Virus record (IMG/VR): IMGVR_UViG_3300037424_001387 | Location: 539-64,538 of that record | Direction: 5' to 3' (one strand) | DNA: 64,000 nucleotides | From: a virus | Lineage: Duplodnaviria; Caudoviricetes | Part shown: positions 44,782-48,135 of the stretch, in pieces | How the letters are laid out: every line of letters starts with the position of its first letter | Position numbering within the stretch: position 1 is the first letter of the stretch | Position numbers and translations under genes: made by a program | The notes under the pieces: generated by a model | Told to the model about the DNA's origin: nothing | Seen by the model: the letters and a program-made list of their open reading frames with translations, nothing else | The model's database searches: none

Positions 44782-45489
44782 TCATACGTACAACCTCGCT
44801 TCAGGGTATTTTGCCGCATAGGCATTAAACAAATCAGGCCAGCCGCGCTTAAGGATTGTCAGTTGTCCATACCCTAAAACCCCTTCAACCGCAAATGGTC
44901 CGATCCTCTGCTGCTCTAACGGTATCCCGATTTCTTCCATCTTGTCGTAAGCCCGATTGTAATCCAGGCCGGTCGAATGGATATAGGCCCATACATCGCA
45001 ACAGGTCCATTGCCATATTGGATTGCAGTGCCAAAAGTCATCGGATTGAGCAAAAAACAGCGGACCAAATTTACGCAGATGAAAAAGACGGCGGGTGTTT
45101 TCATCCTGGCGCAACCCCAAAAATACCAGGTCCATATTGTGGACCCTGGCATAATGAGGTATGCCGTCCCAATCCCCTGCCACTTGGAACCATTCAGCGT
45201 GCCAAGCATTAGTCCGAATCTGGCGGACATCAAGCCCGGTTGTCTGTAGCCGTTGTACATACTCCAACGATTCGGGCAAAAACCATTCATCATCAGACCA
45301 GATGGCCGGCGTGTTTTTTGCCTGCTCACATACCAGGCCATAGACAACGGTCGAGTCCTTGCCGGTTGATAGGGCAACGTATGGCGAGTTGCTTTTTTGC
45401 AATGCCTCACTAACTACCCGCCGGGCCTGCTCAAGCCGGCGCTTAAAAAGGTTGGTTTTTGAGTGCAGGGCGGCTATCTCATTTCTCAT
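44782..45489 (-). CDS. cysH: CysH/PAPS-reductase-like protein of type IV-B CRISPR-Cas
   Basis: VALSTGKDSTV PP-loop, FLGLRQDEN..R, CNPIWQWT..DVWAYI, DYNRAYD. Confidence 0.88.
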   Translation of the reverse strand: MRNEIAALHSKTNLFKRRLEQARRVVSEALQKSNSPYVALSTGKDSTVVYGLVCEQAKNTPAIWSDDEWFLPESLEYVQRLQTTGLDVRQIRTNAWHAEWFQVAGDWDGIPHYARVHNMDLVFLGLRQDENTRRLFHLRKFGPLFFAQSDDFWHCNPIWQWTCCDVWAYIHSTGLDYNRAYDKMEEIGIPLEQQRIGPFAVEGVLGYGQLTILKRGWPDLFNAYAAKYPEARLYV

Positions 45490-46172
45490 TCTGGCATCAC
45501 CAATGGGACTTGATTCGATTGCCGCCAGTAAGACGGCCTGATACCGTAAGTGCCGATATTAAAGCCGCCCTTGTACCCGGCTATATCATCAAATGGCACA
45601 CCGCGCATCAGTCGCCCGTCTTTCCACACTGACCAATCTTCCGGCGCTGCCTCAATTTGCCAGCGATAGACCCGTCCCCACCCCTGGCTATATTTTTTGC
45701 CAAGATGGGTAACTGTGCTGAGTAGATATTCAATTTCCGCTCTATTCCCAACACAGTACCATTCAACCCATTCAGCGACCCGGTAAAAAATCGTCATATG
45801 ATAAGCCTTGTACTGACCTGCCTCTATGACAACTTTGCCTCGTTTATCTCTAAAATCTACCAACCCAGAAAGACCGTTGTCAAAACGTTTGTTCCAATGG
45901 TCCTGGCCTTCGGTTGCGCCCCGTGCCCATTGCGCCCAGGAACATCGATAATACCAGTTGTCCTGACCCTGCCGGGCAATAGCCAGGGGCAGCATTTCCG
46001 TTCGGTTGGGACTGCTCACACTCCCGCCCGGTATGGTCGATTCTTGCGCCCCGTATTTCTCCCGGTGAGCCTGATAAAGCAAAACACCATCCAACGGCAA
46101 CCACCTGTCAGATACCACCCCGCAACGTAACCAGGCCCGAATATGGAGCGGTTGGTAATCAGGTGAGTCCAT
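45486..46172 (-). CDS. csf3: Type IV Cas5-like RAMP Csf3
   Basis: PLHIRAWL..LPLDGVL, HWNKRFD, GQYKAYH, WYCVGN..IEYLL..LGKK..GWGRV, GIRPSYW. Confidence 0.85.
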   Translation of the reverse strand: MDSPDYQPLHIRAWLRCGVVSDRWLPLDGVLLYQAHREKYGAQESTIPGGSVSSPNRTEMLPLAIARQGQDNWYYRCSWAQWARGATEGQDHWNKRFDNGLSGLVDFRDKRGKVVIEAGQYKAYHMTIFYRVAEWVEWYCVGNRAEIEYLLSTVTHLGKKYSQGWGRVYRWQIEAAPEDWSVWKDGRLMRGVPFDDIAGYKGGFNIGTYGIRPSYWRQSNQVPLVMPE

Positions 46173-47133
46173 TGATTAATCTCCTAATTTCATCGGCCCG
46201 GCCGGTCAGATGTTGCATATAGTGACTCCCAAGCGGTGTATCTACCGCTTGACCGGCGGGGGCAATCCTGGGATCGACCTCAATCCAATTATCAAACTTG
46301 ATCGACACCTTGCCGTGTCCAACCCCGCTTTTGCCGCCGATGTACGGGAACCGGCTAAATTCAGCCAGGGTAACGGCGAAGGCATCAAACTCAATCGGGG
46401 TTACATCATCAAGAGTGACATCCCAAAATAACTCCGTGCCGGCGGCCAGGGTTTCGATAAAGTATCTCATTTGCTGCTTCTGTCCGGTTTCGCCAGCAAC
46501 ATCGGCTTTTGTCCCACTTTTAGCCCGCTCAACACGAGCTTTGTCTTCCAAAACACCCCGCACATCAGGGGCAATCAGTTGGCGCAAGTTTTCATTTTTC
46601 TCATCATCCCGGCGGGTATAGGCTTCCTCTTGCACCATTTCCCAAATCGACCGGCTACCATTTCCACCACCAAACCGGGGCGGCAACAGGTGGACCGTCT
46701 CATCACAAATTGGTATCCCCTTGCCGACCTTAACTTTTCCGGGCATTATCTGGTGGCCCATTGCTCCCCCAAATAGAGCAACCAAGGGGATTAATTCCCG
46801 CCACCGCCGGGCCTCGTCAATATCAATTCCCTTCCCAGAAACCTTTGTCAAAGCCCCTCCGCTGAACAAAAAATAAAAAGCCGGTAGAGACAACCCCCTG
46901 ACTTCCCCGCTCTCCTCGTCCACCCCATACCCCAGGGTCCGTAACATATGGAGCATCCCTCGATCCCTCAGAATCCCACGCAGGCTATTGCCTGAGATAA
47001 TTGGTATTTCTTCGACCCCGGCCGGCGCAACAATCTTCTCCCTTCGCAGCCGGGACGAAACGCCGTAGGACTCTCCGATATGGCTCACCGAAGAGAGGCA
47101 TGTCATTACGCCTTCAAAAATGTAAGTTTTCAT
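46159..47133 (-). CDS. csf2: Type IV Cas7-like RAMP Csf2
   Basis: SSVSHIGE, PIISGNSLRGILRD, FLFSGGAL, P..ALFGG, YTRRDD, G-rich loop IGGKSGVGHG. Confidence 0.92.
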   Translation of the reverse strand: MKTYIFEGVMTCLSSVSHIGESYGVSSRLRREKIVAPAGVEEIPIISGNSLRGILRDRGMLHMLRTLGYGVDEESGEVRGLSLPAFYFLFSGGALTKVSGKGIDIDEARRWRELIPLVALFGGAMGHQIMPGKVKVGKGIPICDETVHLLPPRFGGGNGSRSIWEMVQEEAYTRRDDEKNENLRQLIAPDVRGVLEDKARVERAKSGTKADVAGETGQKQQMRYFIETLAAGTELFWDVTLDDVTPIEFDAFAVTLAEFSRFPYIGGKSGVGHGKVSIKFDNWIEVDPRIAPAGQAVDTPLGSHYMQHLTGRADEIRRLINGLT

Positions 47134-47516
47134 TCCGTTTCAATCTCCGTTATCGTGGTAAATAAATCACTTGTGGCCTGGCGTTCTTCCCAGGCTTCCC
47201 GCCGCTCCTGGTTGCGGACCCGGACCATTAAAACTATCAAGGTCGTTTCATCCCGGTACAGCCGTAAAAGCTGCCTGTCGTGCCCGCTGTTTAGAATTTC
47301 TTCGGCACGACGTGTATCATCGCCTTTGATCTGGCTATTCAGTTTCAAACAAGCTGAGTTGACGAACTTCCCCAAGTTGTCGGTGTACGCGCTCGCCCTC
47401 ACCGTGTTCTCGAACTGCTCCCAAATCGTCTGGCGGTAACGGCTCTTGTACTCGCTGCCTATCCCCTTCCATAGGATTTCTAGCAGGTCTGCCGCCGTCT
47501 CCCTCATTTTCTCCAT
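47130..47516 (-). CDS. cas11: Cas11-like small subunit
   Basis: 128-aa helical protein between csf1 and csf2; IWEQFEN.VRASA..L.KFVNSACLKL. Confidence 0.75.
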   Translation of the reverse strand: MEKMRETAADLLEILWKGIGSEYKSRYRQTIWEQFENTVRASAYTDNLGKFVNSACLKLNSQIKGDDTRRAEEILNSGHDRQLLRLYRDETTLIVLMVRVRNQERREAWEERQATSDLFTTITEIETE

Positions 47517-48135
47517 CCTTGATTTCCTTTCTTTGGCTCAAGAACAGAGCCAATTTAAAAAACAGAGATCCCCGAAGCGGTTTAATTACCGACTCCAGGG
47601 ATTGCCATTTATCGAAGCCAAATTGTACTATTCGATAGGGTAGGTACTGGCCTGATTCAATCTCGCCTTTTGAAAAAACAAGTAGGCCAGCCTCAACCGT
47701 GTCAATCAGGGTTTTTAACTCTGCCGGAATGATCCACAGTCGTTGTTCCTCGAATTGGACCCACCCCGCTTTACTGCCAACCGGGTTGCGAGTTGCCCGA
47801 AAAACGATGTGCTTTTGTCCCGATTCGGCAATCACTGCCAATTCTGGAAAAGACTCACCGAGTAGCAGATCGATCATTTTGACCTTGTCGCCTTTGGACA
47901 GGGGAGTCCATTTACCGGCTATAACAAAATGGCTGTAATTCCGCATCTTTTGCGGCTTGTCCTTGCCGGTTATAACGGCCAACTCTTGGCTTTGTTCCTC
48001 AAACCAAAAGCCACAATCAGAACAGATAATCTCGCCCGGCTTCAGCTTGTCGTGGTCAGTGAACGTGTCTTTCACCCATCCATCAAACGACAATCCGTTA
48101 CCGGGCATTCCACAGAAACGACAAGTACCATCCAT
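47335..48135 (-). CDS. csf1: Type IV large subunit Csf1 (Cas8-like)
   Basis: CRFCG...FTDHD..ICSDC, RNYSHF, SGQKH motifs; AGGAG RBS before MDGTC. Confidence 0.8.
   Translation of the reverse strand: MDGTCRFCGMPGNGLSFDGWVKDTFTDHDKLKPGEIICSDCGFWFEEQSQELAVITGKDKPQKMRNYSHFVIAGKWTPLSKGDKVKMIDLLLGESFPELAVIAESGQKHIVFRATRNPVGSKAGWVQFEEQRLWIIPAELKTLIDTVEAGLLVFSKGEIESGQYLPYRIVQFGFDKWQSLESVIKPLRGSLFFKLALFLSQRKEIKDGENEGDGGRPARNPMEGDRQRVQEPLPPDDLGAVREHGEGERVHRQLGEVRQLSLFETE

What the first reader, a model, noticed from the sequence alone, without database searches (positions are those of the whole stretch)
44782..48135. Phage-encoded, array-less type IV-B CRISPR-Cas (csf1-cas11-csf2-csf3-cysH-like)
Seen: a complete five-gene set with coupled starts and stops, ending at a terminator, with no cas1/2/6, no dinG and no CRISPR array in the window. 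Established: type IV-B loci have this composition, occur on mobile elements and have no demonstrated function; crRNA sequestration is one proposal. Here it sits in a virion-encoding phage of an inferred Chloroflexota host, in an early operon. The phage also encodes candidate RNA partners (52.4-52.9 kb, the palindrome at 48148).
Basis: partly seen in the sequence, partly recalled or inferred. Interest (0 to 1): 0.85.

Follow-up and report, generated by a model that had tools for sequence, protein, structure and literature searches.

The report
Phage type IV-B cassette, clamp-docking Csf1
A tailed-phage contig carries a genuine CRISPR-array-less type IV-B Cas cassette, already known from viruses, but its large subunit Csf1 has a conserved floppy tail, encoded inside the next gene in another reading frame, ending in QLSLF, the textbook docking peptide for the bacterial DNA sliding clamp; this gives a testable clue to a CRISPR subtype of unknown function.

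Summary
Observation confirmed. Five minus-strand genes at 44782-48135 are csf1, cas11, csf2, csf3 and a CysH-like PP-loop gene (PADLOC E 6e-22 to 2e-74; Pfam PAPS_reduct 5e-14). They end at a 13-bp bidirectional terminator. The 64.5-kb virus record has a terminase and a tape measure but no array, cas1, cas2, cas6 or DinG-type helicase. It is only 68% complete.

Virus-borne IV-B is already published, so identity alone is a new member of a known kind.

New detail: csf1 overlaps cas11 by 182 nt. The extra 63 residues are predicted disordered and end in QLSLF, the beta-clamp-binding consensus QL[S/D]LF.
- The overlapping frame stays open in 38 of 54 quasi-independent relatives (about 2 expected).
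- A clamp-type motif is present in 32 of 37 long tails (about 2 expected).
- A distant phage subclade (about 30% Csf1 identity, different Cas11 sequence) has the same overlap and motif.

Best reading: the Csf RNA-protein complex is tethered to DNA-loaded sliding clamps. Binding itself is untested because the complex-prediction tool was unreachable.

The proposed phage RNA partners are not supported, and the Chloroflexota host is weakly supported. This scan had already noted the clamp tail and the csf1/cas11 overlap on other DNA. I found no paper reporting either.

The parts
47335..48135 (-). csf1 (type IV large subunit), 266 aa. Zn-ribbon cysteines near the N-terminus. Folded domain is residues 1-203.
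   Evidence: PADLOC Csf1_0_IV 5.7e-22, matching residues 2-202. AF2 model has pLDDT mostly >85 over 1-203. Best PDB fold hits are type IV-A Csf1 chains 7xg1_A (E 7.7e-4) and 8rc3_G.
47338..47526 (-). Csf1 C-terminal tail (residues 204-266). It is predicted disordered and is encoded in the -1 frame relative to cas11 across the 182-nt overlap (47335-47516).
   Evidence: pLDDT <50 over 204-266. The frame is open in 38 of 54 quasi-independent relatives, against about 2 expected under synonymous recoding. Control frames are open in 4 of 54. Synonymous codon bias in cas11 is seen only in long-tail loci.
47347..47361 (-). QLSLF (Csf1 residues 259-263), a candidate beta-sliding-clamp-binding motif, three residues from the C-terminus.
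   Evidence: Translation. Consensus QL[S/D]LF or QxxLF (PMC12309361). A clamp-type motif occurs in 32 of 37 long tails against 2.1 expected. QLSLF and QLDLF are the commonest variants among 78 database homologues with long tails. The motif is also present in a subclade with about 30% Csf1 identity.
47130..47516 (-). cas11 (type IV small subunit), 128 aa.
   Evidence: PADLOC Cas11_1_IV 2.2e-29.
46159..47133 (-). csf2 (Cas7 backbone subunit), 324 aa.
   Evidence: PADLOC Csf2_0_IV 1.8e-74. PDB 7JHY Csf2 E 1.4e-24. 831 database homologues at E<=1e-10; the 120 best listed are 68-95% identical.
45486..46172 (-). csf3 (Cas5), 228 aa.
   Evidence: PADLOC Csf3_0_IV 6.4e-53.
44782..45489 (-). CysH-like (CasCysH) PP-loop ATP pyrophosphatase-type protein, 235 aa. 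PP-loop is S-T-G-K-D-S at residues 41-46. No cysteine after residue 164.
   Evidence: Pfam PAPS_reduct 4.9e-14. 30% identity, E 2e-25, to the CysH-like protein of Rhodococcus pRHL3 IV-B. 27% identity, E 1e-19, to Skermania phage SPI1 Orf44. Sequence.
44722..44752 (.). Bidirectional intrinsic terminator closing the operon and the convergent plus-strand gene 44256-44705.
   Evidence: 13-bp stem with a 5-nt loop, flanked by an A-run and a T-run.
48151..48168 (.). 18-bp palindrome between the upstream stop codon and the csf1 ribosome-binding site. It is one of three copies in the window and is a likely operator.
   Evidence: Copies at 6826, 48151 and 60429; 0 expected in shuffles. Not found upstream of csf1 in relatives.
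49492..50205 (-). Context gene on the same strand, 1.3 kb upstream: a protein with an N-terminal Csx16 (Cas_VVA1548) domain, a candidate anti-type III ring nuclease.
   Evidence: Pfam PF09652 2.3e-16, above cut-off. Csx16 is a confirmed cA4 ring nuclease (PMC12409355).
50503..50531 (-). Promoter-like site that could drive the leftward unit running down to the terminator at 44752.
   Evidence: TTGACA-17-TATGAT, 11 of 12 matches, divergent from a 12-of-12 plus-strand site at 50575-50603. Consensus match only.

Best explanation
This is a bona fide array-less type IV-B Cas cassette (Csf1, Cas11, Csf2, Csf3 plus the CysH-like PP-loop enzyme). It is carried as a movable accessory module by an uncultured tailed phage, and it belongs to a large metagenomic clade of phage and prophage cassettes.

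Shown here:
- the gene identities;
- the phage setting;
- the absence of an array, adaptation genes, Cas6 and helicase in the record;
- a Csf1 C-terminal extension that is overprinted on cas11, kept open by selection, predicted disordered, and ends in a peptide matching the bacterial beta-clamp-binding consensus.

Inferred from the solved Mycobacterium sp. JS623 homologue: Csf2 and Cas11 form a filament on about 55-60-nt RNA without needing a crRNA.

Inferred from the motif: Csf1 tethers this RNA-protein complex to sliding clamps loaded on replicating DNA. That would give a helicase-less, guide-array-less complex access to DNA at replication forks of the host, of the phage itself or of rival elements.

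Inferred from family chemistry: the CysH-like enzyme lacks the redox cysteine and keeps the PP-loop, so it would use ATP alpha-beta cleavage (adenylylation) to modify a nucleic acid held by the complex.

The net effect is most likely a conflict function during infection: counter-defence or interference with competing replicons.
For: Identity.

Phage setting. Relatives sit beside terminase, portal and capsid genes or an integrase. 66 IMG/VR contigs encode Csf1 relatives.

No array, cas1, cas2, cas6 or DinG-type helicase. No arrays in relatives' flanks.

Overlap under selection: the csf1 frame is open across cas11 codons 5-57 in 38 of 54 loci that share <80% nucleotide identity. Synonymous recoding expects 3.8% per locus, with a maximum of 10 of 54 in 100,000 simulations. 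The other alternative frame is open in 4 of 54, and the csf1 frame over the non-overlapped half of cas11 is open in 4 of 54.

Codon bias restricted to long-tail loci: Val52 is GTC in 20 of 20, Leu48 is CTG in 30 of 36, and the Cys56 TGT/TGC preference is reversed relative to short-tail loci.

Motif: Q[LAMPFYQ]x[LMF][FLY] occurs in 32 of 37 long tails against 4 of 17 truncated ones (Fisher 1.1e-5) and against 2.1 expected. QLxLF occurs in 15 of 37 against 0.1 expected. In 29 of the 30 tails measured the motif lies 0-10 residues from the C-terminus, and 21 in the other.

Independent database set: 67 of 78 long tails carry the motif. QLSLF (13) and QLDLF (10) are the commonest variants.

Distant subclade (26-33% Csf1 identity): 15 of 18 long tails carry the motif, mostly at the extreme C-terminus. 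The same +1 overlap is present, with a different Cas11 sequence over the motif.

Disordered tail.

Literature: consensus and importance of motif positions 1, 4 and 5 (PMC12309361). Mobile-element proteins often carry C-terminal clamp motifs in unstructured tails (PMC4549789). The JS623 complex binds heterogeneous RNA (PMC7937560). CasCysH was proposed as an ATP alpha-hydrolase (PMC8175902). The phage has its own DnaB-like helicase but no clamp in the record, so host clamps should load on its DNA.
Against: No physical or modelled evidence of clamp binding was obtained.

The tail is truncated or absent in 17 of 54 relatives, scattered over the tree (at least 8 changes). So it is dispensable in some lineages, or some assemblies are faulty.

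Some long tails carry degenerate variants (QPTLF, QLALP, QPTLS).

The actinobacterial IV-B Csf1 proteins examined (Rhodococcus pRHL3, Skermania phage SPI1) have no such tail, so the feature is not universal to IV-B.

Translation of the tail is inferred from conservation only.

The target nucleic acid, the role of the CysH-like enzyme and the biological outcome are all unshown. The record is 68% complete.
Confidence: 0.6

Rival explanations
1. Guide-RNA sponge (anti-CRISPR). The phage complex soaks up host crRNAs or other small guide RNAs and so disarms host CRISPR-Cas. The Csf1 tail is irrelevant or only modulates this.
For: This is a published proposal for IV-B, with a reported negative correlation between IV-B and other CRISPR systems (PMC7038947; PMC8175902). 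A Csx16-domain gene, a probable anti-type III ring nuclease, lies on the same strand 1.3 kb upstream. A Csx16-like gene also lies near the cassette in L058.
Against: The JS623 complex did not select co-expressed crRNAs (PMC7937560). The authors of the proposal themselves call it unlikely. It explains neither the strictly associated CysH-like enzyme nor a conserved clamp-type motif. Neighbouring genes are otherwise not conserved.
Confidence: 0.12
2. The conserved C-terminal peptide is real but binds something other than the sliding clamp. Candidates are another Csf subunit, the CysH-like enzyme or a host factor, for assembly or regulation of the complex.
For: Short hydrophobic motifs are promiscuous, and binding was not tested. 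Position 2 tolerates P, F, Y and Q, and position 5 tolerates L, P and Y.
Against: The two commonest variants are exactly the clamp consensus QL[S/D]LF. The position at the extreme C-terminus of a disordered tail is typical of clamp clients. The motif persists while the rest of the tail and the overlapped Cas11 sequence change completely.
Confidence: 0.15
3. Dedicated phage RNA partner. The complex assembles on a phage-encoded non-coding RNA from 52.4-52.9 kb, or on a transcript of the palindrome at 48148.
For: Promoter-like and terminator-like sites bracket ORF-poor stretches at 52.4-53.0 kb. The IV-B RNA partner is unknown.
Against: No Rfam family matches. Neither region is conserved in any of about 90 related loci with flanks of up to 10 kb. 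The palindrome occurs three times in the window, one copy inside a coding region (e1-5873476), which fits a DNA operator.
Confidence: 0.05
4. The overlap is a neutral read-through or an assembly artefact, and the cassette is a decaying remnant without function.
For: The tail is lost or truncated in about a third of relatives. All data come from metagenome assemblies.
Against: The open frame and the motif exceed the synonymous-recoding null by more than an order of magnitude, and two control frames behave as the null does. All five genes are intact. Csf2 is 68-95% identical across the 120 best-scoring database clusters listed.
Confidence: 0.03

Closest known systems
Type IV-B CRISPR-Cas of Mycobacterium sp. 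JS623 megaplasmid (Csf complex, PDB 7JHY; PMC7937560) and actinobacterial plasmid loci such as Rhodococcus jostii pRHL3
   Same: Same gene set: csf1, cas11, csf2, csf3 and a CysH-like gene. No array, Cas6, helicase or adaptation genes. Csf2 matches 7JHY at E 1.4e-24. CasCysH aligns end to end with the pRHL3 protein.
   Different: Csf2 identity to plasmid loci is 37% or less. Here the host element is a tailed phage. csf1 overlaps cas11 by 182 nt and carries a disordered tail ending in QLSLF. The pRHL3 Csf1 ends without such a tail, and csf1 and cas11 are separate there.
Virus-borne type IV-B cassettes already reported: Bathyarchaeia 'Fuxiviridae' (PMC10848311) and prophage or phage cases in Pinilla-Redondo et al. 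(PMC7038947). Also the unannotated locus of cultured Skermania phage SPI1 (KR011061, Orf40-44).
   Same: A IV-B effector set plus a CysH-like gene on a virus genome. SPI1 Orf40-43 match the Csf1, Cas11, Csf2 and Csf3 HMMs, and Orf44 is similar to the CysH-like protein.
   Different: Fuxivirus has a mini-array and an archaeal host. SPI1 has only a 14-nt csf1/cas11 overlap and no clamp-type motif. The window's clade has no cultured member.
Bacterial beta-clamp clients with C-terminal QL[S/D]LF motifs: PolC, Pol II/IV/V, Hda, and mobile-element proteins such as IS transposases and Tn7 TnsE (PMC12309361, PMC4549789)
   Same: A pentapeptide matching the consensus, at or near the C-terminus of an unstructured tail, carried by a mobile-element protein.
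   Different: None of these clients is a CRISPR-Cas subunit. Binding is not demonstrated here. The motif-bearing tail is encoded by overprinting on the neighbouring gene.
Type IV-A CRISPR-Cas (Csf complex plus DinG; e.g. PDB 7XG1, 8RC3)
   Same: Homologous Csf1, Csf2 and Csf3. The Csf1 fold is the best PDB match. IV-A1 complexes were reported to interfere with plasmid replication (PMC11551745), which is a thematic link to replication.
   Different: IV-A has an array, Cas6/Csf5 and the DinG helicase, and lacks the CysH-like gene. None of those three was found in this record.

Membership tests
Subtype IV-B CRISPR-Cas | Csf1 large subunit present | tested here: met
   PADLOC Csf1_0_IV 5.7e-22. 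Fold matches IV-A Csf1 7xg1_A.
Subtype IV-B CRISPR-Cas | Cas11-like small subunit present (distinguishes IV-B and IV-C from IV-A) | tested here: met
   PADLOC Cas11_1_IV 2.2e-29. No sequence match in PDB.
Subtype IV-B CRISPR-Cas | Csf2 (Cas7) and Csf3 (Cas5) present | tested here: met
   PADLOC 1.8e-74 and 6.4e-53. 7JHY Csf2 E 1.4e-24. The NCBIfam equivalog scores are below their curated cut-offs, so the proteins are divergent from the seed families.
Subtype IV-B CRISPR-Cas | Associated CysH-like (PAPS-reductase-fold) gene | tested here: met
   Pfam PF01507 4.9e-14, above cut-off. Homology to IV-B-linked CysH-like proteins.
Subtype IV-B CRISPR-Cas | No DinG or RecD helicase, no Cas10-like HD subunit | tested here: met
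   No Helicase_C_2 match in the record. The large subunit is Csf1, not Cas10-like. The only helicase found is DnaB-like at 62116-63459. RecD was not searched specifically.
Subtype IV-B CRISPR-Cas | No CRISPR array, no Cas6, no adaptation genes | tested here: met
   This holds for the 64.5-kb record only, which is 68% complete. No arrays were found in relatives' flanks.
Subtype IV-B CRISPR-Cas | Assembles into an RNA-containing Csf2/Cas11 filament | not testable with these tools
   Known only for the JS623 homologue (PMC7937560).
CasCysH (IV-B CysH-like ATP alpha-hydrolase group) | PP-loop SGGxDS/T-type motif and absence of the C-terminal catalytic cysteine | tested here: met
   S-T-G-K-D-S at residues 41-46, and no cysteine after residue 164 in the translation. 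Criteria from PMC8175902.
Beta-sliding-clamp clients (clamp-binding motif) | Pentapeptide matching QL[S/D]LF or QxxLF | tested here: met
   QLSLF at Csf1 residues 259-263. Consensus from PMC12309361.
Beta-sliding-clamp clients (clamp-binding motif) | Motif in an accessible, unstructured terminus and conserved among relatives | tested here: met
   pLDDT <50 over residues 204-266. Motif in 32 of 37, 67 of 78 and 15 of 18 long tails in three sets.
Beta-sliding-clamp clients (clamp-binding motif) | Physical, motif-dependent binding to DnaN | not testable with these tools
   The complex-prediction tool could not be reached in 17 attempts. It needs a bench assay.

The most novel reading that the evidence does not exclude
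Type IV-B complexes of phages are replication-coupled machines. The overprinted Csf1 tail docks the RNA-loaded Csf filament and its CysH-like adenylyl-transfer enzyme onto beta-clamps at replication forks. There, exposed single-stranded DNA replaces the need for a helicase, a PAM or a CRISPR array. The complex then marks or blocks replicating DNA of the host or of rival elements.
Probability: 0.35. Interest if true: 0.85.

Novelty: new variant of a known kind. Interest (0 to 1): 0.66.

Why it matters
Type IV-B is one of the last CRISPR-Cas subtypes with no demonstrated function. The published ideas (crRNA sponge, CysH-guided modification) offer no handle on where in the cell the complex acts.

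A conserved clamp-docking peptide on Csf1 points to replicating DNA as the place of action. It is kept by selection even though it must be encoded inside cas11 in another frame. It gives simple decisive experiments: peptide-DnaN binding, point mutants and co-localisation.

It is also a clear natural case of a functional short linear motif created by overprinting.

The survey shows that this cassette is common in uncultured tailed phages. Their Csf1 proteins are still annotated as hypothetical. One cultured phage (Skermania SPI1) carries an unannotated IV-B set that could serve as a laboratory model.

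Tried and rejected
- **Complex prediction.** Csf1 residues 200-266 (alignment A1) with DnaN of an Anaerolineales MAG (alignment A2 of 27 class relatives) was sent 17 times (include the retries). The machine was unreachable or gave no usable answer, so there is no result either way.
- **Rfam.** No family at gathering scores in the window. Only sub-threshold sRNA hits in 50-54 kb.
- **tRNA/tmRNA.** None, so the T-loop-like GGTTCGATTCC at 52560 is not part of a recognisable tRNA.
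- **Co-conservation of phage non-coding regions with the cassette.** None found.
- **Mini-arrays near related cassettes.** Repeated 18-mers spaced 45-100 nt in seven loci. Those inspected were iterons (L060), a single 21-nt pair (L046) and degenerate tandem repeats (L008), not CRISPR.
- **Host assignment.** Only 3 species-genome hits, and only the already known MAG among 401 Chloroflexota genomes. Metagenome chromosomal contigs L046 and L048 could not be searched.
- **Programmed +1 frameshift making a Csf1-Cas11 fusion.** Considered and thought less likely, because the csf1 frame stays open to a conserved C-terminal motif followed closely by a stop. Not excluded.
- **Csf2 catalytic Asp (Asp42 of JS623).** The alignment to 7JHY starts after that position, so it was not assessed.

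Full report
**1. What is there**

The window is bases 539-64538 of a 64,538-bp IMG/VR virus record. The record is linear and CheckV estimates it as 68% complete.

On the minus strand lie five ORFs:

| gene | coordinates | length |
|---|---|---|
| csf1 | 48135->47335 | 266 aa |
| cas11 | 47516->47130 | 128 aa |
| csf2 | 47133->46159 | 324 aa |
| csf3 | 46172->45486 | 228 aa |
| cysH-like | 45489->44782 | 235 aa |

PADLOC type IV models match the first four at E 5.7e-22, 2.2e-29, 1.8e-74 and 6.4e-53. NCBIfam Csf2 and Csf3 equivalogs match at about 1e-17 but below their curated cut-offs. Pfam PAPS_reduct matches the fifth at 4.9e-14.

Further support:
- Csf2 matches the solved IV-B Csf2 of Mycobacterium sp. 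JS623 (7JHY) at E 1.4e-24.
- An AlphaFold2 model of Csf1 finds type IV-A Csf1 chains as its best PDB neighbours.
- The CysH-like protein aligns end to end with the CysH-like proteins of a Rhodococcus IV-B plasmid locus (E 2e-25) and of Skermania phage SPI1 (E 1e-19).
- It has the PP-loop S-T-G-K-D-S and no C-terminal cysteine, as described for CasCysH (PMC8175902).

The last three gene junctions overlap by 4, 14 and 4 nt. A 13-bp bidirectional terminator at 44722-44752 closes the unit.

**2. Phage setting and what is absent**

A tape measure (14291-18658) and a large terminase (37103-38413) show a tailed phage. The record also has a DnaB-like helicase and two DNA methyltransferases.

Nothing CRISPR-array-like turned up:
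- TRF and direct-repeat searches find no such repeats in the window or in the 538 nt outside it.
- Six-frame family searches find no Cas1, Cas2, Cas6 or DinG-type helicase domain.
- No integrase or sliding clamp was found either.

About a third of the genome is missing, so absence of an array holds only for what is held. Related cassettes with up to 10 kb of flank also lack arrays.

**3. How ordinary is a phage IV-B?**

Subtype IV-B on prophages and phages is in the literature (PMC7038947). An archaeal virus family with IV-B plus a CysH-like gene has been described (PMC10848311). As of late 2025 the function was still open (PMC12669027).

Collection searches gave:
- Among 50,697 deposited phage genomes, one hit: Skermania phage SPI1. 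Its Orf40-43 match the four Csf HMMs, yet all are annotated as hypothetical.
- Among plasmids, 70 records, mostly Rhodococcus and Mycobacterium, at 37% identity or less.
- In metagenomes, 831 Csf2 homologues at E<=1e-10. The best 120 listed are 68-95% identical.
- 66 IMG/VR contigs encode Csf1 relatives.

Contexts read in full are phage or prophage. The cassette lies next to terminase, portal and capsid genes (L007, L010) or next to an integrase at a prophage-host junction (L006). Flanking genes are otherwise not shared, apart from recurrent DNA methyltransferases. The cassette therefore behaves as a movable accessory module.

**4. The csf1/cas11 overlap**

The Csf1 HMM match ends at residue ~204. 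The reading frame continues for 63 more codons, 182 nt into cas11, which is in the +1 frame.

tblastn shows the same arrangement in every one of the first eight independent relatives. I then collected 80 metagenome loci and reduced them, together with the window and the loci fetched earlier, to 54 loci sharing <80% cas11 nucleotide identity.

| test | open in |
|---|---|
| csf1 frame across cas11 codons 5-57, observed | 38 of 54 |
| same, expected under synonymous recoding of cas11 | 3.8% per locus; about 2 of 54; never more than 10 in 100,000 simulations |
| other alternative frame (control) | 4 of 54 |
| csf1 frame over the non-overlapped half of cas11 (control) | 4 of 54 |

Synonymous sites of cas11 are frozen only in long-tail loci:
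- Val52 is GTC in 20 of 20.
- Leu48 is CTG in 30 of 36, against mixed codons in short-tail loci.
- Cys56 is TGT:TGC 26:9, against 5:12 in short-tail loci.

The tail is therefore a selected coding extension, not a chance open frame. AlphaFold2 gives pLDDT <50 for residues 204-266, against mostly >85 for the folded domain. That fits a disordered, overprinted region.

**5. The motif**

The window's Csf1 ends in R-QLSLF-ETE. The bacterial clamp-binding consensus is QL[S/D]LF, or more generally QxxLF, with positions 1, 4 and 5 critical (PMC12309361). Mobile-element proteins such as IS transposases often carry it at an unstructured C-terminus (PMC4549789).

| set | long tails with a clamp-type motif |
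|---|---|
| 37 long-tail representatives | 32 (2.1 expected by recoding); strict QLxLF 15 (0.1 expected) |
| 17 loci with an interrupted tail | 4 (Fisher 1.1e-5 against the long tails) |
| 78 independently called database proteins with long tails | 67; commonest QLSLF (13), QLDLF (10), QPTLF (9), QLALF (8) |
| distant subclade of viral contigs (26-33% Csf1 identity), 18 long tails | 15, mostly QLSLF or QLDLF as the very last residues |

In 29 of the 30 long-tail representatives measured, the motif lies 0-10 residues from the C-terminus (21 in the other).

The distant subclade matters most. Its tails are unrelated in sequence. Its csf1 tail again overlaps a +1-frame cas11-like ORF. The Cas11 residues over the motif differ from those of the near clade. 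So the motif is the conserved element, not a shadow of Cas11 conservation.

Actinobacterial Csf1 proteins (pRHL3, SPI1) lack the tail. A tree shows the long-tail state throughout the clade, with at least eight scattered truncations. The tail is therefore ancestral to the sampled clade but dispensable in some lineages.

**6. Mechanism**

Shown:
- the identities, the selected overlap and the motif.

Inferred:
- From JS623: Csf2 and Cas11 form a filament on ~55-60-nt RNA without crRNA preference.
- From the motif: Csf1 tethers that complex to clamps on replicating DNA. The phage brings a helicase but no clamp in the held record, so host clamps should be present on phage as well as host DNA.
- From family chemistry: CasCysH acts as an ATP alpha-hydrolase or adenylyl-transfer enzyme on a bound nucleic acid.

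A clamp tether would explain how a complex without a helicase, a PAM-reading history or guides could reach DNA. It fits the observation that IV-A1 complexes disturb plasmid replication. Which DNA is acted on, and with what result, remains open.

I could not test binding. The complex-prediction tool was unreachable throughout.

**7.

- The palindrome abutting the csf1 ribosome-binding site occurs three times in the window against 0 expected. It is absent upstream of csf1 in relatives. It is more likely an operator than an RNA partner.
- The ORF-poor 50.2-53.6 kb region holds several strong promoter-like and terminator-like sites. It has no Rfam family and no counterpart near related cassettes.
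- A same-strand gene at 49492-50205 has a Csx16 (Cas_VVA1548) domain at E 2.3e-16. Csx16 is a proven cA4 ring nuclease (PMC12409355). The phage probably also counters type III CRISPR signalling. This lends some support to a counter-defence setting but does not prove one for IV-B.
- The Chloroflexota host is supported only by two short MAG contigs. The cassette was found only in the already known MAG among 401 Chloroflexota genomes searched.

**8. Prior notes of this scan**

After I had found the overlap and the motif, the scan's index showed that other agents had noted related things on other DNA:
- a clamp-docking tail on Csf1 in cyanophage and other IV-B modules (e1-3690854, e1-3670251, e1-3494983, e1-5324816);
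- a conserved csf1/cas11 overlap in a large phage clade (e1-3269482).

These are unchecked AI notes and are not counted as evidence. My tests here agree with them. They add the link between the two features (the motif-bearing tail is the overlap), the recoding statistics and the distant-subclade comparison.

Searches of the open-access library found no paper linking Csf1 or type IV systems to a clamp-binding motif.

**9. Verdict**

The finding is real and correctly named. As a phage-borne IV-B cassette it is a new member of a known kind. The selected, overprinted Csf1 tail with a clamp-type motif makes it a new variant and gives the open question of IV-B function a direct experimental handle.

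Noticed in passing
window 49492-50205 (-): A 237-aa protein with an N-terminal Csx16 (Cas_VVA1548, PF09652) domain, E 2.3e-16. It is a probable phage-encoded cA4 ring nuclease acting against type III CRISPR signalling. The C-terminal ~140 aa are unassigned.
   Followed up: partly
window 6826-6843, 48151-48168, 60429-60446: An 18-bp palindrome (TTTCTGCTCAAGCAGAAA) occurs three times, against 0 expected. One copy lies inside a coding region, one abuts the csf1 ribosome-binding site, and one lies near 60.4 kb. It is likely an operator for a phage regulator.
   Followed up: partly
window 50433-53455: An ORF-poor control region. It has a perfect 12-of-12 sigma-70-like promoter (+, 50575-50603) divergent from an 11-of-12 one (-, 50531-50503), four more strong promoter-like sites and several terminators. 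These include a shared bidirectional terminator near 52658-52682 and a promoter-hairpin-T-run unit at 53079-52967. It looks like a lysis/lysogeny-type switch with small RNAs. No Rfam family matches.
   Followed up: partly
window 63903-63982: 3.5 tandem copies of a 23-nt unit (GGGTGACATTTTGCC followed by a G-run) about 20 nt from the window and record end. It may be a terminal or packaging-related repeat, or an assembly artefact.
   Followed up: no
L006 versus L007 (ENA contigs of 104 kb and 72 kb): The same phage appears in two states. The left flank is identical through integrase-csf1...cysH. The right flank is host genes (heavy-metal ATPase, transketolase) in L006 and terminase, portal and capsid genes in L007. 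The attachment site therefore lies just downstream of cysH, and in the prophage the IV-B cassette sits at the very edge next to the integrase.
   Followed up: partly
L015 (Skermania phage SPI1, KR011061) 3840-7473: Orf40-44 of this cultured siphovirus form an unannotated type IV-B set (Csf1, Cas11, Csf2, Csf3 by PADLOC; Orf44 resembles CasCysH). All five are deposited as hypothetical proteins. It is the only hit among 50,697 phage records.
   Followed up: yes
L060 1260-1474: A cluster of at least eight copies of the palindrome TTGACC-N4-GGTCAA, spaced 23-42 nt, about 4.6 kb upstream of a related cassette. It is iteron-like, not CRISPR.
   Followed up: partly
window 19586-21088 and 23255-25156 (-): Within or near the structural module lie a BNR/Asp-box (sialidase-like beta-propeller) protein and a 633-aa protein with two glycosyltransferase-like regions (GtrB-like). 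They may act in host-surface recognition or modification.
   Followed up: no
protein database hits P0123-P0242: Csf1 proteins of this clade are uniformly labelled 'hypothetical protein' by their sources, whereas the neighbouring Csf2 is named. Gene callers often take the long csf1 ORF and then truncate or drop cas11 (for example L006, L010).
   Followed up: partly
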